A DNA stretch of 64,000 nt from a phage: the NCBI GenBank assembly GCA_024672315.1, contig GCA_024672315.1_4714.1; one strand, 5' to 3'. Within the stretch, counting starts at the first letter, position 1. Each line of letters opens with the position of its first letter. Below the pieces are notes generated by a model that made no database searches, had not been told where the DNA came from, and saw only the letters and a list, made by a program, of their open reading frames with translations. Position numbers and translations under genes: made by a program. This document shows, in pieces, positions 1,884 through 9,609 of the stretch.

Positions 1884-4793
1884 ATGAACGATATAAATAA
1901 AGGGCGCGTCGCCCTCGAACGTCAAATGAGTAATAATGACGTTGCGAAGGCACTCATGAACAAATTTGTCGCTCCTGCTCCGCAGTCACGTCTTTATAAT
2001 ACACGTGATGCGGAAGGAGCGAACGGTCGTTTCGGGTTAGTTGTTCCCGACCAAATGACGATGAACACGGTTACGCGTGCGACCGCGACAAACATCGAGG
2101 ATAATAAAAACATCCTCGAGTTGTTCCCTGAACTTAAACGCGTGATGCAGATCTATGTTGCCGCGTTGACGAACCCTAACGATCTTAAGACGGTCGAGAT
2201 GTTTATCGACAGCGAAGATTTCCCCGGCAGAGTCGCAGAAATCGTTCAGCCGATGATCGATACCATCGACACGCATTTTAAGAATATCTATAAAATAAAG
2301 ACGCTTATCCCTCGTATCATCGAAGACGTCTTCTTTATCAAGGGCAGTTATAACTTCGTTGTTCTGCCAGAAAGCACGCTCGACCGCGCCATTAATGGTA
2401 ACGGTCAACTGAAACTTGAAGAATACGGATTTAAAGACAACCATTTTGCAAGTTGGGGGCTTCTAGGTAACGACAGTCGCAAACGCCACGAAAATCAATT
2501 ACCTGCGACGGTTTCGATGGAAGATTATTTCTCAGGCGTTAATGAAACCATACCGTACGATCCTGTTGTTCGCATAGACAGCATTAAGTTTACCAATACC
2601 CTGCTTCGTGATAAGGACGGTAAATTCATTGAAGCGAAGATCGATATTCCGGATATGGTTACGGTTGTCGATAACCCAGACATCCTCCGCATGCCTATTC
2701 TACATCAACGTCGAGCAGCGACCGCGGTACAACGTGCGTTACGTGCGAACACGTTAGGTGGTAGTGGTTTGGTAACACTGTCAGGTGATCCGACCCTAAC
2801 CGCTAACCGACGTGAGCTGTCGCAAGAACAGGTTAACGAGATTTGGAATAAACTCAACATCCAGCGTCACACCAAGGTATCTCCCGTTTACGCGTTGGCA
2901 ACCCCAGATACACTCGATCGTCAAAGCGTTGGTCATCCTGGCGTGATGCACGTACCACCTGAGGCATTAGAACCCGTACATGCACCAGGTGATCCGGAGA
3001 ACCATATCGGGTATTTAGTTCAGTTGGATGAGTTTGGTTATCCGGTGCGTTTGGTTGAAGACGCAGCGTATTACAAGCAGTTGGAAGGTCGATTGTCGAA
3101 GATCACCGCGGATATCGCAGGTACGTCAAGCAACGGCATGGCGAGCGAGATGATCGGCGCAGCCAAGAACATGATCCAAGGTACGTCATGTAATCAGGTA
3201 GACATGTCGGCCTTCGTATCGTCGTACGAATCGCTGATGCAACGTTACATTGTTGAACGTATCGTTAACGGCTATCTTGGCAGTGCGGTGGAAATCGGCG
3301 CGACATCATCGTTCTATTTGTCTATGCTTGCTCGTAGTCTCGCTCACAAGCAGACCCGTGTTTTGTTTATTCCTCGAGAGATGGTGACTTACATCGCCTA
3401 TGAATACAACAAATACGGTATCGGTCGTTCGCTGCTTGAAAGTACGAAAATGATCTCGTCGCAACGAGCCATGCTCATGGTTCAAGAACTGATGGCGAAA
3501 ATCAAAAGTTCGTTGAACTATACGACGTTAAGCGTAATGCTTGAAGACACCGACAGAAACCCGGTCGATACCGTCGAACAAGCACTACATAGTTTCGCTC
3601 GTGTCTACCAGTCTGGTTTCCCGTTGGGTGAAACTAACCCGATGGATATCATCAATGCGTACGAACGAAGCTCGATTCGATTGAAGGTTGAGGGGAATAA
3701 CCCACGCTTCCCGAAATTGAATACAGACGTCAGCGTTGAGCAGCGCAACTATCAGTCTCCTGATAATGAGCTGATGGATCGTTACCGTCGTGACCATTTC
3801 ATGGGCTTGGGCGTTTCTCCGGAGATTATCGATACTTCCTACCAATCTGAATTCGCAGCTTCTGTGATTACAGCTAACGCGATGCAGGAGAAACAGTTCA
3901 CGGTTTGTCGTGAGGTGATCACGAATGGGTTATCGGACCACATCAAGAAATACACGGCATACAGTCCCGTGTTGTTGACGTCGTTACGAAACACGGTTCG
4001 TGCGAACATGTCTAAGCTCTCCCAGGCACAATTGAAGCAGCTTTTTGGTAGCGATTTCGAAAACGGTGTTATCCGTAACGTTAACGCCTATCAGGAGATT
4101 GACGACCAATCAGCAACAATGGATCTGGATTACACTAAACCAGAAGTCCAGGAAGTTATTGCCGATGCTTATGTGTCCATGTTCTTAAACAGCCTGCGTG
4201 TGCGTTTACCGGATAGCAATGCTCGTCGCCTTGAAGATCAGGTACGTGAATATAATCAGTACAAGGAAGCGATTACTGCGCAACTTGATGATTATTTAAC
4301 GCCTGATTACGTCATGGGTCTGGGTGGGGTTGATGAAACAACGCTGCAGATGATTCGTGCATGCATTATTGGTACCGCGATGCGTACGTGGGCAAAAGAG
4401 AACAACTTCAATCAGGAGCTAGCTGATCTCTTCAGTCTTGACGATAAGAAGAATGCCGTGCAAGATTGGAAACGTATGTCCATGGAACATATTGAAGTCA
4501 TGGGTAAATGCATGGGTGATTTTGCATTGTATATTCAGAATCTGACGAAGAAGATTGAAGAGAAGATGGGCGCTCAAGCACAGGATGGTAGCGTTTCATC
4601 TGACGGTTCTTGGTCATCCGATTCAAGTAGCGATACCGGTTCTTCTGATGACTTCGGTGGCGGTGACGATTTCGGGGATACCGATTTCGATACCGAAACG
4701 ATGGAGGAAACCTCAACAGAAGAAACAACCACATCTGAGGATACGACGACCGACACAACGTCAGAAGACGATACTTCAGGTGATATTGTCTAA
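1884..4793 (+). CDS. large hypothetical protein (969 aa) with acidic Ser/Asp/Thr-rich C-terminal tail; possible virion protein
   Basis: Long ORF, ATG with AAGGAG upstream; diverges from gene 1 with interleaved RBSs; C-terminal low-complexity tail SSDGSWSSDSSSDTGSSDDFGGGDDF...; no Walker A motif seen; stop followed by A13 run and GC-rich hairpin. Confidence 0.8.
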   Translation: MNDINKGRVALERQMSNNDVAKALMNKFVAPAPQSRLYNTRDAEGANGRFGLVVPDQMTMNTVTRATATNIEDNKNILELFPELKRVMQIYVAALTNPNDLKTVEMFIDSEDFPGRVAEIVQPMIDTIDTHFKNIYKIKTLIPRIIEDVFFIKGSYNFVVLPESTLDRAINGNGQLKLEEYGFKDNHFASWGLLGNDSRKRHENQLPATVSMEDYFSGVNETIPYDPVVRIDSIKFTNTLLRDKDGKFIEAKIDIPDMVTVVDNPDILRMPILHQRRAATAVQRALRANTLGGSGLVTLSGDPTLTANRRELSQEQVNEIWNKLNIQRHTKVSPVYALATPDTLDRQSVGHPGVMHVPPEALEPVHAPGDPENHIGYLVQLDEFGYPVRLVEDAAYYKQLEGRLSKITADIAGTSSNGMASEMIGAAKNMIQGTSCNQVDMSAFVSSYESLMQRYIVERIVNGYLGSAVEIGATSSFYLSMLARSLAHKQTRVLFIPREMVTYIAYEYNKYGIGRSLLESTKMISSQRAMLMVQELMAKIKSSLNYTTLSVMLEDTDRNPVDTVEQALHSFARVYQSGFPLGETNPMDIINAYERSSIRLKVEGNNPRFPKLNTDVSVEQRNYQSPDNELMDRYRRDHFMGLGVSPEIIDTSYQSEFAASVITANAMQEKQFTVCREVITNGLSDHIKKYTAYSPVLLTSLRNTVRANMSKLSQAQLKQLFGSDFENGVIRNVNAYQEIDDQSATMDLDYTKPEVQEVIADAYVSMFLNSLRVRLPDSNARRLEDQVREYNQYKEAITAQLDDYLTPDYVMGLGGVDETTLQMIRACIIGTAMRTWAKENNFNQELADLFSLDDKKNAVQDWKRMSMEHIEVMGKCMGDFALYIQNLTKKIEEKMGAQAQDGSVSSDGSWSSDSSSDTGSSDDFGGGDDFGDTDFDTETMEETSTEETTTSEDTTTDTTSEDDTSGDIV

Positions 4794-4879: not shown

Positions 4880-5155
4880 TTATTTCGAGGTTAACCACGA
4901 TTCAATTGTGGTGAGTTTGCTTCTCAGTACGCGCCAACTAGGGTGTGGTGGGATCACAGCGCCATTGTCGATTACGGTTAGCTGAACCTGGTACTTCTGT
5001 TGCATACGTGCTACCGTGTCGCTTATCGAGAGGAAAAGCTGGTAACGTTCATATGCCGTCAGTTCACTGTCCTGTTGAACTGCGTTGGCTGCTAACGTAA
5101 TTTCGCGTAAGTCCTTTGCATCCACAGAGACGGTAATGAGTTTATATTGACTCAT
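4880..5155 (-). CDS. hypothetical protein (91 aa)
   Basis: ORF with AAGGA RBS 6 nt upstream of ATG; convergent with previous gene across hairpin 4828-4862. Confidence 0.6.
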   Translation of the reverse strand: MSQYKLITVSVDAKDLREITLAANAVQQDSELTAYERYQLFLSISDTVARMQQKYQVQLTVIDNGAVIPPHPSWRVLRSKLTTIESWLTSK

Positions 5156-5216: not shown

Positions 5217-7775
5217 TTACTGCTCATCACGTTCCAACAGATACTCGGAAGCGGTAATACCGTTTACCGTACGCACTGCTTTCAGACGAGTATCATCACT
5301 CAGAATCACGGTAACAGATTGCAGACCTTTTACTTTGGTTTCGAAGGTCTTGAACACCTGATCCAGCATACGAGCAATGCTTGGGTTGGTTGCAGCCGAT
5401 GCGTGAGTGTAACCGCTCTGGTTCAGCTTCAGAATCTTGGCGTTGGTCGGTACGCGAACAACAACATGCGGACGCATCGCGAATACGCTGTGATTGAACC
5501 AGTAAGCATCGTTGCTATCTTCGTCGGTAACGATGTCTGGATTAACACGCATATCCTCGATAGCCGCATCCGCCAAACGACGTTCGATTTCATCGGCGTC
5601 CAGAGAGCCATCTTTCTCCAGTTCTGCACGATACTCACTCATGGCGACCAGATGACGCTCACGATTCGCTGCAGATTTTTCGTGAGCGGCTTTCAGGTAG
5701 TCATGCATGTTGTACAGTTCAGCCATGGAAAGACGAATGTTCCATTGACCTTCGCCATCACGATTGCAGTAGAGACACTTCAGCATGTTGACCCAGGTGT
5801 AGTAGCAATTGGAGAATTCATCTTCAATGAACTTCTGGTCCATTTTAAGATCGTGAATCAGCCAACCGGACAGTTCTCCGATATCATCAACGAAGCTAGA
5901 GATGGTGGTTTCAGAGAAGTTCTTCGGTACGATACGTTTGATCAGCTTATTGACGTCTTTGGTCATGCTATCGTTCAGGAAATGCCAGATACGCAGAGGA
6001 ATGACATCTCGATACTGTTGCATGATCTGACGATAAGCTTTGATATCGTCGCTACGACCTTTATCAATAGACAACGCATCCAGGAATTCATGGATTGCAT
6101 CCAGCTCCTTGTCGGTATAGGTTCCCAGATAGGAATTGACCGTAGCCAGGAATGCTAATGCGTCGTTTTGGTTGACGTCGGTGTTGGTCTGCTGAATGAT
6201 TGCCACTGAAGCTTTGGTTTCAGCATCCTCAACGCTTGACGCTGCGATTGCGTCGGTGACGGTAAACAGTTTCATTTCGCGCTGCTCGCCGACAACGATT
6301 GGTTCGCGTTGAACCGGTTTGTTAAGGCTAACACGAACAACTTCTGCTTGCGCGATGCGATCCAGTTTTGCCATTTCCTGCTCTGCCATACGACGAGCGG
6401 TTGGATCTGATTCAAGTTCGATGTATTCCACTTCTTCCTCCGTGAGGGATGTAATGTCAACAATGGTTTCATGAAGAATTCCGTTTTCGTCGATACGTGC
6501 CCGACGAGCGAAGTGTCTGAAGTCATACAACGTCGGCCAACGACTATTAGGTGCAAAGTCTTTGGCTTTCAGACGCATCTGCATAAATTCTTCATGTTGA
6601 ACAACACGACCGTAACGCTTAGCATCTTCGGTCGCATCAATTGGATTAACGGTCTTTGTTACCGTAGCAGAACGAGCCGTACGAACGGGTTCCGGTTTCA
6701 CCTGCGCAGGTTCAGGTTGAACGGGTTTCTGCTGCCCAGCCTTAACATGCCATTCTGGCTCTTCGTACTGTTCAGCAAACTGTTCAGCCGCTGCAAAGAT
6801 ATCGTTGATACCACCAATATCTCCTTCAGGATTTGTCGAGTAAATCCGTGGTTGTGGTGCCTCGTAACGCGGCGCTGTAGCAGCAGGTGCATCATCAACG
6901 ATAGGATCGTCATCACCAACATCATACAAACGGTTGAACGCACAATCCTTCGAATCGATGTACGATGGCGCTTGTGGTTGAACAACCGTCGGCCGAGGTT
7001 GTGCGCCGTATCCTGGCGTTGTTGGAGCCATACCACGCATAACTGCCGGATTAGGCTGGTATTGCGGTTGCGGATAGGTTCCACCATACATGGCGTACGC
7101 TGGCTGTTGTGGTTGACCGTACCCGCCACTAACCATCGCGCTTGCTTGCGGGCCACGATAAGTCATCCCCATCTGCATCACCTGCTGCTTCAAACCACGT
7201 GACTTCTGCGCGATTTGTGCCAGGCTCCCGCTTTTATTCAGCTGCGTGTACTTATTCGCGGCTTCCGGGTTAATGCGTGATAATTCAATCGCGCGATAAT
7301 ATTCCGGGTACTGATTCGGTTCAAAGAGCCACGTTACAAGATGATACAGCGCAACTGTGCTCACGGCAGCAGAGACGATCTGGTCGTCGGACGCGTTCTG
7401 CGGCATCGGGTTGATGTAAGAGAACACGTTCCAACAACAGTCTTCAACAAGCGATTCCATCATCATATCGTTATTGGTATAACGTGCGACGAATTCGGTT
7501 TGTATTTTGTCTTGCTGAGCGAAGTCTTTCAGGACATTAAAGATAGCTTGACGGATTTTGACGATCGTTGCTTCTTGGGTGATGAAGTTATAGTTCTGCT
7601 GATATGAGGGTTGTTGGTATTGTGGTGGTTGATAGGCGTTATTCGGATATGCGCCGTACGGCGATTGCTGATACTGTTGCTGACGAACCTGTTCAGCCGC
7701 ATAATTAACCGTGCTCGTATAAGGGTTTTCGCTATAGCCCATTTGTTGATACATGTTGTTACTGCCATTATACAT
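5217..7775 (-). CDS. hypothetical protein (852 aa) with Q/Y/N/P/G-rich low-complexity N-terminal and internal regions
   Basis: Long ORF, AAGGAT RBS 8 nt upstream of ATG; N-terminus MYNGSNNMYQQMGYSENPY...QPPQYQQPSYQQNYNF and internal GGYGQPQQPAYAMYGGTYPQPQYQPNP segments. Confidence 0.8.
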   Translation of the reverse strand: MYNGSNNMYQQMGYSENPYTSTVNYAAEQVRQQQYQQSPYGAYPNNAYQPPQYQQPSYQQNYNFITQEATIVKIRQAIFNVLKDFAQQDKIQTEFVARYTNNDMMMESLVEDCCWNVFSYINPMPQNASDDQIVSAAVSTVALYHLVTWLFEPNQYPEYYRAIELSRINPEAANKYTQLNKSGSLAQIAQKSRGLKQQVMQMGMTYRGPQASAMVSGGYGQPQQPAYAMYGGTYPQPQYQPNPAVMRGMAPTTPGYGAQPRPTVVQPQAPSYIDSKDCAFNRLYDVGDDDPIVDDAPAATAPRYEAPQPRIYSTNPEGDIGGINDIFAAAEQFAEQYEEPEWHVKAGQQKPVQPEPAQVKPEPVRTARSATVTKTVNPIDATEDAKRYGRVVQHEEFMQMRLKAKDFAPNSRWPTLYDFRHFARRARIDENGILHETIVDITSLTEEEVEYIELESDPTARRMAEQEMAKLDRIAQAEVVRVSLNKPVQREPIVVGEQREMKLFTVTDAIAASSVEDAETKASVAIIQQTNTDVNQNDALAFLATVNSYLGTYTDKELDAIHEFLDALSIDKGRSDDIKAYRQIMQQYRDVIPLRIWHFLNDSMTKDVNKLIKRIVPKNFSETTISSFVDDIGELSGWLIHDLKMDQKFIEDEFSNCYYTWVNMLKCLYCNRDGEGQWNIRLSMAELYNMHDYLKAAHEKSAANRERHLVAMSEYRAELEKDGSLDADEIERRLADAAIEDMRVNPDIVTDEDSNDAYWFNHSVFAMRPHVVVRVPTNAKILKLNQSGYTHASAATNPSIARMLDQVFKTFETKVKGLQSVTVILSDDTRLKAVRTVNGITASEYLLERDEQ

Positions 7776-7809
7776 TTCTTACGATCCTTTTTATTTATTC
7801 GGTTATGTG

Positions 7810-9609
7810 TCAATCGATTATGTCGTGATCGTTAATTTCTACAATTTCTTCATCGAATCGACCGACGTCTTTCTTCAAGCCTGCATTGGTTGCTGCAACG
7901 TCATTTGCAATTTGTGGAGTAATGATTAACCGACCACGCTCGTCGATAGGTGCGTACATACTGAACTTCTGACGTCCGGTTGGTTCGGAGTGCGGAAGAT
8001 TCAGATAGCTTGCACAGAACGGGATGGAACCACTAACCAAACGACTCTCGTCAGCCAATGCAGCACCGCCTGCATTTTGGCTCTGGAGAACAACATGTGT
8101 GCTCACTTTGAACAGCATGCAATCACCAGGTGACTGAATCGATGTTGCCACTTTCTCACGTTTATCACGATTGCTCTGGATATTGAGAATCGCTTCCGTT
8201 GCAACTTGATTTCGCAACGCCTTCTGTACATCGCGATTGGTCATCTCTTTACGGTTGTTCTGTCGTTTACCACGTTCTGTGGTTTTAAGATGGAACCCCA
8301 GTTTAAAGATGCTCTTACGCACATCCTCCATGACATATTCCAACACCATCAGTTCCTTACCGAACATCGTCGTGGTATCAACACGACTCATTTCGATAGT
8401 AACATTATCAATCAGATACGCCATAAATTCGTAGAAGTCGTCGCAAGGAATATTTTCCTGTTTGAACTTCTTCTGTTGAATCTCGTCAACGTAAAGATCG
8501 AGACTGTCGATGTGGTGGTTTACATCACGCAACAAACGCGCATCCGCATTGTTGTTATTAAAGATAATCAAACCGAGTAATGTACGCCAATGGTCTGGCG
8601 CATTCGCGAACTCTTCAACCGGATAGTCTTCCGGAAAACGATCGTAATAACGGTCGATGAGATATAAGAACGCACCGACAAGGCCAAGAACAATACGTTC
8701 CGTGCCTCCACGTCTTACAGCGATTTGAATATCAGGATGTTTATAACGTACAGCGCTAGCGCTACGGCTTTTACCGCTTTTGCTGATACTAAAGCCTTTA
8801 GGAATAACCCCCATGGTGCGATAGATTACCCATTGGTCGCGCGGAAAATCACGTTCAGCAAGGTTCCGTCCGGTTACGGCTTCGACACCTGCAAAACGTC
8901 GGAAACACTCACCCACCCCGTACTTCGCAAAGAGATAGTGACCCAGTGTGGTTACGCTGGTGTGGTTGATGTTGTCACCGTTCACTTTACTTTGTTTGGT
9001 AAGATGATAGATTTGCGACCAGGGTAATGACAGGTAATGACGATAATCGATACCGGTCGGTGTATCATTGCTCAGGAACTGATACGGTGTACGTTTAACC
9101 GTGATTTTGTCACGCGGAAGCATGATGAACGCCATGTCTTTCGTGTAACTGATTACCGGGTCAGCGAGCACCGCACTGAGAATGAAGTTCGCACCACGTA
9201 GACGCATTTTACCACCCTGACCTACCGCGGGTAATAGGAGAGGGTGTCGGATAATGCAGTAGTCCTTTCCGGGTTCACGACGGTCACCTGATTCCATCGC
9301 GCCGTACCAGCGGAATTCTAGCATCACCATAAACACATCGGAAGGCGCAAGGTCGAAGGTCAGCTTACCGCTATCCTTCCCTTTGGTTTTCTTTCCTCCG
9401 CTTAAGTAGTGGAACTGTTCGCGGGCCATACAGCGACGCAGGCCATGATACACCAGATCCTTAGGTAAACTATCTTTGCTGTTCCGCCAAAGACGATCAA
9501 CATAGGACTCAACATCTTGCATCTTATCGACGACGATGTTGCGTGCTATCTTCTCGTTCATCTTCGGTGCAAGCTCAGCGACAGCTTTGCAGAATCTAGG
9601 ATCCATCAC
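7810..9609 (-). CDS. hypothetical protein (599 aa)
   Basis: Long ORF; strong AAGGAG RBS 6 nt upstream of ATG at 9609. Confidence 0.8.
   Translation of the reverse strand: MMDPRFCKAVAELAPKMNEKIARNIVVDKMQDVESYVDRLWRNSKDSLPKDLVYHGLRRCMAREQFHYLSGGKKTKGKDSGKLTFDLAPSDVFMVMLEFRWYGAMESGDRREPGKDYCIIRHPLLLPAVGQGGKMRLRGANFILSAVLADPVISYTKDMAFIMLPRDKITVKRTPYQFLSNDTPTGIDYRHYLSLPWSQIYHLTKQSKVNGDNINHTSVTTLGHYLFAKYGVGECFRRFAGVEAVTGRNLAERDFPRDQWVIYRTMGVIPKGFSISKSGKSRSASAVRYKHPDIQIAVRRGGTERIVLGLVGAFLYLIDRYYDRFPEDYPVEEFANAPDHWRTLLGLIIFNNNNADARLLRDVNHHIDSLDLYVDEIQQKKFKQENIPCDDFYEFMAYLIDNVTIEMSRVDTTTMFGKELMVLEYVMEDVRKSIFKLGFHLKTTERGKRQNNRKEMTNRDVQKALRNQVATEAILNIQSNRDKREKVATSIQSPGDCMLFKVSTHVVLQSQNAGGAALADESRLVSGSIPFCASYLNLPHSEPTGRQKFSMYAPIDERGRLIITPQIANDVAATNAGLKKDVGRFDEEIVEINDHDIID

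What the first reader, a model, noticed from the sequence alone, without database searches (positions are those of the whole stretch)
5217..7775. Prion-like Q/Y/N/P/G-rich low-complexity regions in an 852-aa protein
Seen: the N-terminal 60 residues and an internal segment of about 90 residues are dominated by Q, Y, P, N and G (for example QPPQYQQPSYQQNYNF and GGYGQPQQPAYAMYGGTYPQPQYQPNP), flanking otherwise ordinary sequence. Inference: such composition is typical of self-associating or condensate-forming proteins and is unusual for a phage protein.
Basis: inference. Interest (0 to 1): 0.45.

Follow-up and report, generated by a model that had tools for sequence, protein, structure and literature searches.

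The report
Disordered tyrosine-rich arms of phage JADA
The glutamine/tyrosine/proline-rich stretches are real, but they belong to a very diverged copy of JADA, an essential early protein of nucleus-forming jumbo phages that has a known floppy linker, and whether these conserved "sticky" arms make it cluster remains untested.

Summary
ORF 5217-7775 (-) encodes 852 aa with two almost uncharged Q/Y/P/N/G-rich regions (aa 1-63 and about 198-272). It is the clear compositional outlier among the window's 51 long ORFs.

The window is a Goslar-like nucleus-forming jumbo phage, and the gene is Goslar gp38. I identify it as a highly diverged ortholog of JADA (Pa36 gp316 / phiKZ gp124, PDB 9RP3). Four lines support this:
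- Sequence: a profile without phiKZ-like sequences hits only 9RP3 among all PDB sequences (E 3.5e-8).
- Profiles: subfamily profile-profile matches have 91-96% probability.
- Synteny: it lies directly downstream of the non-virion RNA polymerase subunit.

JADA is published as early, essential, located at the early-infection vesicle, dimeric through its C-domain, and carrying a long disordered linker. Its molecular function is unknown.

The internal low-complexity region is that linker. The N-terminal one is an added tail. Both are under purifying selection (dN/dS 0.10-0.18). Tyr and Gln are nearly invariant, and tyrosines in the tail are evenly spaced. Similar uncharged regions recur in many orthologs but not all.

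Self-association is plausible but untested. Verdict: a new member of a known family, of moderate interest.

The parts
5217..7775 (-). Complete CDS, 852 aa plus stop. Ortholog of Goslar_00038 (gp38) and a diverged member of the JADA / phiKZ gp124 family.
   Evidence: ORF. It is 97.1% nt and 98.8% aa identical to Goslar MK327938 37235-39793, annotated 'hypothetical protein'. Family assignment rests.
7785..7789 (-). Shine-Dalgarno-like AAGGA, 9 nt upstream of the ATG at 7775. It sits in the 34-nt gap after the RNA polymerase subunit gene.
   Evidence: Sequence read. The N-terminal Met and the following residues are conserved in relatives, and LCR1 has dN/dS 0.18, so the tail is translated.
7587..7775 (-). 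LCR1, aa 1-63: an N-terminal, nearly uncharged Q/Y/N/P tail with 12 evenly spaced tyrosines. It is 13 aa longer in relatives P0003 and P0004 and much shorter (about 28 aa, N/G/Q-rich) in P0005.
   Evidence: Composition. Tyrosine gap variance is 4.07 against a shuffle mean of 16.6 (p=0.003), and 10 of 12 Tyr are invariant. Indels appear. AF2 pLDDT is 24-32.
7185..7586 (-). N-terminal helical domain, aa 64-197.
   Evidence: AF2 predicts helices 58-203 with pLDDT 50-63, the best-scoring part of the N-terminal half of the full-length model. It is not detectably homologous to the N-domains of other JADA subfamilies (hhalign probabilities below 1%), although those are related to each other.
6960..7184 (-). 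LCR2, aa 198-272: a nearly uncharged P/Q/G/Y/M-rich linker containing VMQMGM and GGYGQPQQP.
   Evidence: dN/dS is 0.105 and all 8 Tyr are invariant in the Goslar clade. AF2 leaves it as coil with pLDDT 20-23. It corresponds in position to JADA's disordered linker at residues 170-270.
6636..6959 (-). aa 273-380: the Pro/Ala/acidic continuation of the disordered region, including the conserved YDVGDDDP motif and one short predicted helix (aa 324-334). Where the JADA-like C-domain starts within this stretch is uncertain.
   Evidence: 30 charged residues in 108 aa. AF2 leaves it as coil with pLDDT 20-28. dN/dS is 0.129. The hhalign match to Xoo-sp14 starts at aa 323.
5220..6635 (-). C-terminal alpha/beta domain, aa 381-852, homologous to the dimer-forming, Avs5-sensed C-domain of JADA.
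   Evidence: - Sequence: profile A5 against all PDB sequences gives a single hit, 9rp3_A, at E 3.5e-8.
- Profiles: hhalign to the phiKZ, Xoo-sp14, RAY and Kodama groups gives 91-96% probability.
- Conserved motifs are visible in alignment A3.
5541..5738 (-). A long helical insertion of about 65 aa (aa ~680-745), present in the Goslar clade and absent from the other JADA subfamilies.
   Evidence: It forms a gap block in alignment A3 at columns about 415-500. AF2 predicts one long helix with the highest pLDDT of either model, 79-84.
7810..9609 (-). Upstream neighbour, 599 aa: a non-virion RNA polymerase beta-type subunit, homolog of phiKZ gp123. This is the conserved anchor of JADA's genomic position.
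   Evidence: phrog_2943 'polymerase' at E 7e-120. tblastn hits 235 jumbo-phage records, including phiKZ gp123.
4880..5155 (-). Downstream 91-aa ORF of unknown function. It is kept at the same position in relatives (91 aa in L098, 110 aa in L005, Goslar_00037).
   Evidence: There is no Pfam or PHROG assignment.

Best explanation
[quoted passage not shown] This part is shown here, and I put it at about 0.9.

**What follows from the published work on JADA (inferred, not tested here).**
- It should be made early, probably co-transcribed with the adjacent non-virion RNA polymerase subunit.
- It should dimerise through its C-terminal domain.
- It should accumulate at the early-phage-infection vesicle, where the phage nucleus is born, and serve early gene expression in a way not yet understood.

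**The two low-complexity regions.** They are intrinsically disordered arms. LCR2 plus the acidic/Pro stretch is the tether between the N-domain and the dimeric C-domain. LCR1 is an extra N-terminal tail.

**Proposed mechanism (inferred, about 0.35).** The arms are almost uncharged, carry conserved tyrosines embedded in Q/P/N/G spacers, and are under purifying selection. I therefore propose they act as sticker-and-spacer modules. One dimer would display four such arms, giving multivalent weak contacts with itself or with partner proteins. These contacts would help concentrate JADA into the foci seen at the infection site, in the manner of FUS-type low-complexity domains and of the N/G-rich tail of ChmC.
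For: **Identity**
- The window is 97% identical to phage Goslar, and the gene is Goslar_00038.
- A C-domain profile built from the Goslar group plus Xoo-sp14, without phiKZ-like sequences, finds one sequence among 177,635 PDB sequences: 9rp3_A, Gp316/JADA, at E 3.5e-8.
- phiKZ gp124 matches 9rp3_A over all 721 residues of both at 1666 bits. The paper itself names phiKZ_124 as the JADA ortholog.
- hhalign of the Goslar group against the phiKZ/Noxifer, Xoo-sp14, RAY and Kodama groups gives 96%, 96%, 93% and 91% probability, and all alignments are collinear.
- The significant Foldseek hits in BFVD are uncharacterised 640-870-aa proteins. Those that carry names are from jumbo phages, and they include the RSF1 and RP12 positional orthologs.
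- The gene lies directly downstream of, and in the same direction as, the phiKZ gp123-type RNA polymerase subunit. The same holds in all 17 other chimallivirus loci examined. The JADA paper reports this position as invariant.

**Published biology of JADA**
- It is early, abundant at 10 min, essential, forms EPI-vesicle foci, and has a C-terminal homodimer, a disordered linker at 170-270 and no density for the N-terminal part.
- An antisense oligomer against PHIKZ124 reduced plaques and ChmA and strongly perturbed phage transcription at 30 min (PMC12571901).

**The arms**
- Composition and outlier status.
- AF2 leaves them as coil with pLDDT 20-32, while the adjacent N-domain reaches 50-63 in the same model and the C-domain, modelled separately, up to 84.
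- dN/dS is 0.18 and 0.105 at dS of about 0.7-0.9.
- Q is invariant at 23 of 24 positions and Y at 18 of 20, and the tyrosines in LCR1 are evenly spaced (p=0.003).
- Uncharged Q/P/G/M plus aromatic regions recur at the same two positions in the RAY/Agricanvirus, SA002, SNUABM37, Proteus phage 10 and phiKZ orthologs and in the Vibrio and JM-2012 analogs, with no sequence conservation between them.
- Precedent in the same phage family: the low-complexity tail of ChmC drives condensates.
Against: - Nothing here tests self-association. The JADA foci could be driven wholly by the folded domains.
- Both AF2 models are of low confidence (mean pLDDT 38 and 57). The fold match rests on local similarity, with TM-scores of about 0.2, and low pLDDT is only weak evidence of disorder.
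- The orthologs in RSF1, SPLA10, Ea277G, Kodama, KpSz_1 and Xoo-sp14 have no such composition, so any condensate role is clade-specific or dispensable.
- Tyrosine spacing in LCR2 is not more even than chance (p=0.45). Enrichment of invariance at aromatic positions is not significant (Fisher p=0.16).
- The Q+N count is below the classical prion-domain threshold.
- The N-domain of the Goslar clade could not be linked to the JADA N-domain.
- Only one of the two PHIKZ124 antisense oligomers gave a plaque phenotype. An oligomer at the ribosome-binding site just after gp123 could also affect the polymerase gene.
Confidence: 0.5

Rival explanations
1. Passive tether. The low-complexity regions are only entropic spacers that keep the N-domain and the dimeric C-domain flexibly connected. 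Their Q/Y/P/G composition is a tolerated by-product with no interaction role.
For: The internal region corresponds to JADA's disordered linker, which gave no cryo-EM density. Six orthologs have linkers of ordinary or charged composition. Linker sequence is not conserved between subfamilies. Tyrosine spacing in LCR2 is not distinguishable from random.
Against: A neutral spacer should evolve faster than the folded domains, but dN/dS is 0.105 in LCR2 and 0.18 in LCR1, against 0.098-0.17 in the domains. Tyr and Gln are almost invariant. LCR1 is a terminal tail and links nothing, and its tyrosines are spaced more evenly than chance. Charge-depleted, aromatic- or Met-bearing composition arose or was kept in several distant lineages.
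Confidence: 0.3
2. Host-SSB linker mimicry. In the Goslar clade the internal region imitates the disordered linker of enterobacterial single-stranded-DNA-binding protein. This would let JADA join SSB assemblies or compete for proteins that read the SSB linker.
For: - Real SSB tails fetched from 80 gammaproteobacterial genomes carry ...MQMLGGR...GGWGQPQQPQ...DFDDDIPF. The phage segment has VMQMGM...GGYGQPQQPA...DVGDDDPIV in the same order.
- Local alignment scores are 62-71 against a shuffle mean of about 35 (sd 6.5). Only 1-16 of 5000 shuffles reach the observed score.
- z-scores are 3.4-5.2 against Enterobacterales and Vibrio SSB, 0.1-0.9 against a Pseudomonas SSB, and 2.0-2.6 against a FUS control.
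- G[YWF]GQPQQP arises in 1.5e-5 of shuffles of the region. [WYF]GQPQQ is present in 68 of 80 SSBs.
- phiKZ gp124 was reported to co-purify with host DnaX or FtsZ complexes (Van den Bossche 2014, as cited in PMC11849849). From my own knowledge, the DnaX complex binds SSB.
Against: - SSB was chosen after seeing the sequence, so the p-values are optimistic.
- There is no DNA similarity to E. coli and no relative was found in bacterial genomes.
- The other subfamilies do not resemble their own hosts' SSB tails: RAY against Erwinia z 0.7, Proteus phage 10 against Proteus z -0.1.
- The acidic motif is internal. From my own knowledge, SSB-tip recognition uses the free C-terminal carboxylate.
Confidence: 0.1
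3. True prion or amyloid domain. The regions switch to a self-propagating aggregated state that has a regulatory role.
For: Only the compositional resemblance to prion-like domains.
Against: Q+N is 26 per 80 aa, below the 30/80 criterion. From my own knowledge, high proline content (6 of 63 and 13 of 68 residues) disfavours amyloid, and evenly spaced aromatics are typical of liquid-like rather than amyloid-prone domains. A lytic infection lasting tens of minutes has no obvious use for a heritable switch.
Confidence: 0.03

Closest known systems
[quoted passage not shown]
   Same: Both have a homologous C-terminal domain by sequence profile and by fold. Both have the architecture N-domain, long disordered linker, C-domain. 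Both sit immediately downstream of the non-virion RNA polymerase subunit gene, and both are restricted to chimalliviruses.
   Different: - Pairwise sequence identity is at noise level: tblastn and phmmer do not connect them.
- This protein is 131 aa longer.
- It has an extra 63-aa Tyr/Gln-rich N-terminal tail.
- Its linker is Tyr-rich, whereas phiKZ's is Gly/Met-rich.
- It has an extra helix of about 65 aa in the C-domain.
- Its N-domain has no detectable similarity to the JADA N-domain.
- Dimerisation, localisation, essentiality and Avs5 activation are untested for this protein.
ChmC (PhiPA3 gp61 / phiKZ gp67 / Goslar gp176), an RNA-binding protein associated with the phage nuclear shell
   Same: It is a chimallivirus protein whose disordered low-complexity tail, about 40 aa and N/G-rich, drives condensate formation in vitro and puncta in cells (PMC11077065). 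It is the nearest working precedent in the same phage family.
   Different: There is no homology. ChmC has a Whirly fold, its tail is N/G-rich followed by an acidic cluster, and condensation needs RNA. The regions here are Q/Y/P-rich, and no nucleic-acid binding is shown.
FUS/EWS/TAF15-type (S/Y/G/Q) low-complexity domains of eukaryotes (compared from my own knowledge)
   Same: Both are nearly uncharged, with tyrosines every 4-8 residues in Q/G/S/P/N spacers. The aromatic spacing in LCR1 is even.
   Different: There is no evolutionary relation. The regions are much shorter (63 and about 70 aa, against about 165 or more) and richer in proline.
Intrinsically disordered linker of gammaproteobacterial SSB
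   Same: Both have G/Q/P-rich uncharged composition and share the motif G-aromatic-GQPQQP, preceded by MQM and followed at a distance by an acidic DDD(I/P) motif.
   Different: There is no OB fold. The acidic motif is internal rather than C-terminal. The similarity is confined to the Goslar clade, and there is no DNA-level similarity to the host.

Membership tests
JADA / phiKZ gp124 family | C-terminal domain homologous in sequence to the JADA C-domain | tested here: met
   Profile A5 (Goslar clade plus Xoo-sp14) against all PDB sequences gives one hit, 9rp3_A, at E 3.5e-8, over JADA residues 369-599. hhalign against the phiKZ/Noxifer profile gives 96% probability at E 4e-9.
JADA / phiKZ gp124 family | C-terminal domain with the fold solved in 9RP3, which has no other structural relatives | tested here: met
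JADA / phiKZ gp124 family | Gene immediately downstream of, and co-directional with, a non-virion RNA polymerase subunit gene | tested here: met
   There is a 34-nt gap after the phiKZ gp123 homolog at 7810-9609 (-). The arrangement is the same in phiKZ, RP12, RAY-like and 14 other loci.
JADA / phiKZ gp124 family | N-domain and C-domain joined by a long disordered region | tested here: met
   Helical region at aa 58-203, coil at 204-380 with pLDDT 20-28, then an alpha/beta C-domain.
JADA / phiKZ gp124 family | N-terminal domain homologous to JADA residues 1-170 | tested here: inconclusive
   hhalign of the Goslar-clade N-domain against every other subfamily gives probabilities below 1%, while the other subfamilies link to each other at 72-97%. 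The profiles are very shallow (2-4 sequences), so this is either strong divergence or a domain replacement.
JADA / phiKZ gp124 family | Encoded by a nucleus-forming (Chimalliviridae) jumbo phage | tested here: met
   The finding's gene is 97.1% nt identical over its whole length to Escherichia phage Goslar. The neighbouring genes correspond to the phiKZ-type major capsid and portal-like block of the Goslar record.
JADA / phiKZ gp124 family | Early expression, essentiality, homodimer, EPI-vesicle localisation, activation of Avs5 | not testable with these tools
   These are known only for Pa36 and phiKZ (PMC12931631; PMC12571901). No data on Goslar gp38 were found.
Prion-like / Q/N-rich domain | At least 30 Q+N in an 80-residue window (classical criterion, quoted from my own knowledge) | tested here: not met
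   The maximum is 26 per 80, at aa 1-80.
Prion-like / Q/N-rich domain | Positive call by the PLAAC hidden Markov model | not tested
   PLAAC and its parameter table are not available in this environment.
Sticker-and-spacer prion-like low-complexity domain (works-like comparison) | Low charge with aromatic residues spaced more evenly than chance | tested here: met
   The charged fraction is 0.048 in LCR1 and 0.044 in LCR2. LCR1 tyrosine gap variance is 4.07 against a shuffle mean of 16.6 (p 0.003), and relative P0003 gives the same result. LCR2 is not significant (p 0.45).
Sticker-and-spacer prion-like low-complexity domain (works-like comparison) | Self-association or phase separation of the isolated region | not testable with these tools
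   This needs purified protein or live-cell imaging.
SSB (as a source or model of the linker) | OB-fold DNA-binding domain and a C-terminal ...DDDIPF tip | tested here: not met
   There is no Pfam or NCBIfam hit of any kind. The acidic motif DVGDDDPIV is internal, at aa 285-293. Only the linker motif G[YW]GQPQQP is shared.

The most novel reading that the evidence does not exclude
JADA's molecular role may be that of a scaffold. The C-domain dimer would display four conserved, uncharged Tyr/Gln/Pro arms that nucleate a small condensate on the early-infection vesicle. That condensate would gather newly made early proteins, such as the non-virion RNA polymerase encoded next door and nucleus-shell components, at the place where the phage nucleus is born.

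In the Goslar clade the linker may additionally copy the host SSB linker motif (GG[YW]GQPQQP) and so plug into host SSB assemblies. Under this reading the low-complexity arms, not only the folded domain, would be functionally central to an essential step whose mechanism is currently unknown.
Probability: 0.15. Interest if true: 0.7.

Novelty: new member of a known kind. Interest (0 to 1): 0.4.

Why it matters
JADA was named in 2026 as an essential, early, abundant chimallivirus protein and as the trigger of the Avs5 immune sensor. Its authors state that its molecular function is unknown. This analysis adds three things.

- **A model-system ortholog.** The E. coli model phage Goslar has a JADA ortholog, gp38. 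It is still annotated 'hypothetical' and is invisible to BLAST or single-sequence HMMER. This makes JADA accessible in the best-imaged chimallivirus system.
- **A hidden core gene.** The family behaves like a core gene of the phage family. A positional ortholog or analog exists in every genome examined. Yet the ASO-screen table (PMC12571901) lists PHIKZ124 under 'non-core genome', and PHROGs splits the family over at least five families.
- **Constrained disordered parts.** The disordered regions are selectively constrained and their composition recurs across distant lineages. This gives concrete, cheap experiments (Tyr-to-Ser mutants, arm deletions) on how JADA concentrates at the infection vesicle.

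If the arms turn out to be inert, the finding is simply a correct annotation.

Tried and rejected
- **Word-indexed protein search, whole protein.** It returned only four 80-99% identical relatives, because the low-complexity words filled the candidate list.
- **Word-indexed protein search, other queries.** The RAY-type C-domain returned nothing, not even itself. The 15-sequence family profile returned three proteins.
- **Exhaustive HMMER of aa 380-852 against 1.84 billion representatives.** It gave one real new relative (P0005, 39% identity) and one spurious eukaryotic repeat protein (P0006).
- **tblastn of the protein against 50,697 phage records.** Only Goslar matched.
- **Family libraries.** Pfam gave only a sub-threshold Cas9_C_2 match (18.4 bits against a cut-off of 27), rejected as chance. 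PHROGs and NCBIfam gave nothing for this protein.
- **Full-length Goslar-clade profile against PDB sequences.** No hit. Xoo-sp14 was needed as a bridge.
- **Structure prediction.** The full-length AF2 model was too poor to use (pLDDT 38). The afdb50 fold library was unavailable.
- **Repeats and signals.** There is no DNA tandem repeat under the low-complexity regions. The promoter and terminator scan was uninformative, at or below shuffle expectation.
- **Host origin of the linker.** A scan of bacterial genomes with the linker peptide found no relative. blastn of the linker DNA against 5,426 E. coli genomes found no match. Recent capture from the host is therefore rejected.
- **Literature.** Searches for Goslar gp38, gp038 and QBO63831 found nothing on this protein.
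- **FG-nucleoporin-like transport role at the phage nuclear shell.** I considered it and set it aside. Nothing places JADA at the shell, and published localisation is at the early vesicle.
- **Inhibition of host DnaX or FtsZ.** I considered it and set it aside. It rests on a second-hand citation of one pull-down study.


Full report
**1. The observation**

The ORF is exactly as described: 5217-7775 on the minus strand, ATG start, 852 aa. An AAGGA ribosome-binding site lies 9 nt upstream of the ATG, and the preceding gene ends 34 nt away.

In 40-aa windows the Q+N+Y+P+G fraction is 0.57-0.70 over aa 1-80 and 0.65-0.68 over aa 201-260. Elsewhere in the protein it is 0.07-0.40.
- LCR1 (aa 1-63) holds Q14 Y12 N9 P6 and 3 charged residues.
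- LCR2 (aa 205-272) holds P13 Q10 G9 Y8 and 3 charged residues.
- A Pro/Ala/acidic stretch follows, up to about aa 380.

Of the 51 ORFs of at least 150 aa in the window, this one has by far the most extreme 60-aa window, 0.70 against 0.42 for the next. No shuffle of the protein out of 5000 reaches 0.70. No DNA tandem repeat underlies the regions. The highest Q+N count is 26 per 80 aa, short of the classical 30/80 criterion.

**2. Whose gene it is**

The gene is 97.1% identical in DNA to Escherichia phage vB_EcoM_Goslar, a nucleus-forming jumbo phage. It corresponds to Goslar_00038, annotated 'hypothetical protein'.

The upstream neighbour (7810-9609, minus strand) is a non-virion RNA polymerase subunit, a homolog of phiKZ gp123. 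Further upstream in Goslar lies the major capsid gene. Downstream are a 91-aa ORF and, on the other strand, a 969-aa portal-like virion protein.

Ordinary searches treat the protein as an orphan:
- four 80-99% identical relatives in a 5.8-billion-protein index;
- only Goslar by tblastn in 50,697 phage records;
- no Pfam, PHROG, NCBIfam or PDB sequence match;
- one further real relative in an exhaustive HMMER pass over 1.84 billion representatives: P0005, 774 aa, 39% identical in the C-terminal half. It comes from a contig with the same gene order.

**3. Synteny gives the family**

I fetched 17 other chimallivirus loci. They cover phages of Pseudomonas, Ralstonia, Erwinia, Xanthomonas, Salmonella, Proteus, Serratia/Klebsiella and Vibrio, a sea-squirt-associated phage, and a metagenomic contig. 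In every one, a 650-890-aa hypothetical gene sits directly after the gp123-type polymerase subunit in the same orientation. In phiKZ this gene is gp124.

Pairwise BLAST links most of these proteins into one network through collinear matches in the C-terminal half. P0005 hits the Xoo-sp14 gene by tblastn at E 2e-6.

Profile-profile comparison of the Goslar clade with other groups, all collinear:

| Compared group | Probability | E-value |
|---|---|---|
| phiKZ/Noxifer | 96% | 4e-9 |
| Xoo-sp14 | 96% | 3e-9 |
| RAY/Agricanvirus | 93% | 4e-7 |
| Kodama | 91% | 9e-7 |

A 15-sequence alignment shows shared motifs. One Asn in a T..VN helix motif is the only invariant column. The alignment also shows a helical insertion of about 65 aa that is peculiar to the Goslar clade.

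**4. The family is JADA**

An AlphaFold2 model of aa 380-852 built with 7 sequences had mean pLDDT 57. Three searches with it, or with family profiles, converge:
- Foldseek against the PDB gave 9rp3_A/B as the only hits with E <= 0.001.
- A sequence profile built only from the Goslar clade plus Xoo-sp14 hit exactly one of 177,635 PDB sequences, 9rp3_A, at E 3.5e-8.

phiKZ gp124 matches 9rp3_A over all 721 residues of both.

Foldseek against predicted viral structures gave as its significant hits only uncharacterised 640-870-aa proteins. The named ones are from jumbo phages, including RSF1 and RP12. A 768-aa entry with the length of the JM-2012 analog scored at probability 0.75, and a Vibrio phage entry at E 4e-3.

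The paper behind 9RP3 is Muralidharan et al., Mol Cell 2026 (PMC12931631). It reports the following about JADA:
- It is specific to Chimalliviridae.
- It is early, abundant at 10 min and essential.
- It forms foci at early-infection (EPI) vesicles.
[quoted passage not shown] The C-domain forms the cryo-EM homodimer and is sufficient to trigger the Sir2-STAND sensor Avs5.
- Its molecular function 'remains to be elucidated', possibly in early transcription.

Independent functional data come from an antisense screen. Knock-down of PHIKZ124 lowered plaques (+) and ChmA (++) and strongly perturbed phage transcription at 30 min (PMC12571901). Only one of the two oligomers scored. The Churi ortholog was detected at 15 min as a non-structural protein. 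phiKZ gp124 has also been cited as co-purifying with host DnaX or FtsZ complexes (PMC11849849).

I found no sign that Goslar gp38 has been named as a JADA ortholog. I could not see the paper's figure listing its homologs.

One membership feature stays open. The helical N-domain of the Goslar clade shows no profile similarity to the other N-domains, which are related to one another.

**5. What the low-complexity regions are**

By position, LCR2 plus the acidic/Pro stretch is JADA's disordered linker. LCR1 is an additional N-terminal tail. AlphaFold leaves both as coil at pLDDT 20-32. In the same model the adjacent N-domain reaches 50-63, and the C-domain, modelled separately, reaches 84.

They are not free-running filler. 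I compared the gene with that of P0004 (80% aa identity, dS about 0.7-0.9):

| Region | dN/dS |
|---|---|
| LCR1 | 0.18 |
| LCR2 | 0.105 |
| Acidic/Pro stretch | 0.129 |
| N-domain | 0.169 |
| C-domain | 0.098 |

Within the Goslar clade, Gln (23/24) and Tyr (18/20) are the most invariant residue types in the two regions. The excess for aromatics over other residues is not significant (p 0.16). The 12 tyrosines of LCR1 are spaced far more evenly than chance (gap variance 4.07 against 16.6, p 0.003), and P0003 gives the same result. LCR2 shows no such evenness (p 0.45).

Across the family, uncharged Q/P/G/M-rich regions carrying Tyr, Phe or Met recur at the same two places, the N-terminus and about aa 160-260. 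They occur in the RAY-type, SA002, SNUABM37, Proteus phage 10 and phiKZ orthologs and in the Vibrio and JM-2012 analogs, with no sequence conservation between them. They are absent from RSF1, SPLA10, Ea277G, Kodama, KpSz_1 and Xoo-sp14. Composition, not sequence, is what is kept, and only in part of the family.

**6. Most likely mechanism**

Shown here: identity as a JADA ortholog, and arms that look disordered by composition and low pLDDT (formal disorder prediction not run), are charge-poor, Tyr/Gln-conserved and selectively constrained.

Inferred from the orthologs: early expression, C-domain dimer, accumulation at the EPI vesicle, and a role in early gene expression.

Inferred from composition, with FUS-type domains (my own knowledge) and ChmC's condensate-forming tail as analogies: a dimer exposing four sticker-and-spacer arms could make multivalent weak contacts that help concentrate the protein into foci. 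I put this last step at about 0.35.

The main rival, at about 0.3, is that the arms are only flexible tethers. The six arm-less orthologs favour this view. The selective constraint, and the fact that LCR1 links nothing, argue against it.

**7. A lead seen on the way**

The Goslar-clade linker resembles the disordered linker of gammaproteobacterial SSB. The phage has VMQMGM, then GGYGQPQQPA, then DVGDDDPIV. SSB has ...MQMLGGR, then GGWGQPQQPQ, then DFDDDIPF.

I tested this against real SSB tails fetched from 80 genomes:
- Local alignment scores are 62-71 against a shuffle mean of about 35 (sd 6.5). Only 1-16 of 5000 shuffles reach them.
- The 8-residue motif arises in 1.5e-5 of shuffles.
- [WYF]GQPQQ is present in 68 of 80 SSBs.

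The signal is weak as evidence. SSB was chosen after the fact. Other JADA subfamilies do not resemble their own hosts' SSB. There is no DNA similarity to E. coli. The acidic motif is internal. I keep it as a rival at about 0.1.

**8. Comparison, novelty, verdict**

The protein is a new and very divergent member of a known family, JADA. Its internal low-complexity region is that family's known disordered linker.

The composition and its conservation fit a self-associating module, and the ortholog forms foci, but nothing demonstrates condensation. Prion-like composition is not rare among phage proteins: PLAAC gave 5040 candidates in 370,617 proteins (PMC5694896).

What is new is modest but useful:
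- an annotation for Goslar gp38;
- evidence that JADA behaves like a hidden core gene, although the ASO-screen table lists PHIKZ124 under 'non-core genome' and PHROGs fragments the family;
- testable features of its disordered arms.

Interest is 0.4.

Noticed in passing
window 1884-4793 (+), last ~70 codons (about 4580-4790): The 969-aa portal-like virion protein (phrog_3004) ends in a strongly acidic Ser/Thr/Asp/Glu-rich low-complexity tail (...SSDGSWSSDSSSDTGSSDDFGGGDDFGDTDFDTETMEETSTEETTTSEDTTTDTTSEDDTSGDIV). This is a second, different kind of low-complexity region next to the finding.
   Followed up: no
window 6960-7184 (-), aa 198-300; SSB loci L018-L097: The linker carries VMQMGM...GGYGQPQQP...DVGDDDPIV. 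This parallels the conserved ...MQMLGGR...GGWGQPQQP...DFDDDIPF of gammaproteobacterial SSB tails. Alignment scores exceed nearly all composition-preserving shuffles (1-16 of 5000 reach them). The resemblance is limited to the Goslar clade, and there is no DNA similarity to E. coli.
   Followed up: partly
window 5541-5738 (-), aa ~680-745: The Goslar clade (window, P0003-P0005) has a long helical insertion of about 65 aa in the JADA-type C-domain that all other subfamilies lack. It is the most confidently predicted element in both AF2 models (pLDDT 79-84).
   Followed up: partly
family level: L002-L017; PHROGs 15010, 11639, 35635, 36323, 13213: The gene after the gp123-type polymerase subunit exists in every chimallivirus locus fetched. 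Yet the ASO-screen table (PMC12571901) lists PHIKZ124 under 'non-core genome', and PHROGs splits the family into at least five unlinked families. It looks like a hidden core gene that evolves too fast for clustering pipelines.
   Followed up: partly
L012:5162-7546 (Salmonella phage SPLA10 ortholog), N-terminus: This ortholog has an Arg/Asp-rich N-terminal low-complexity tail (MARYTNDRNRSRGRDDRDDRRRGRDRRDDRD...) where the Goslar clade has a Gln/Tyr-rich one. The N-terminal tail is a variable module whose chemistry differs radically between lineages.
   Followed up: no
window 4880-5155 (-); L098:5643-5918; L005:12406-12738: A small ORF (91 aa here and in L098, 110 aa in L005) is kept between the JADA-type gene and the portal-like gene in the Goslar-related genomes. 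It has no family assignment.
   Followed up: no
window 7164-7586 (-), aa 64-204: The N-terminal helical domain of the Goslar clade shows no profile similarity to the N-domains of other JADA subfamilies, which are related to each other. It is also the least conserved folded part within the clade (75-77% identity to P0003/P0004, against 85-99% for the C-domain). This suggests either domain replacement or very fast evolution.
   Followed up: partly
P0001: A 99%-identical protein stands for 496 member sequences and comes from a 238-kb ENA contig. Goslar-like phages with this gene have therefore been sampled repeatedly in public data, although only Goslar itself is in the phage record collection searched.
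   Followed up: no
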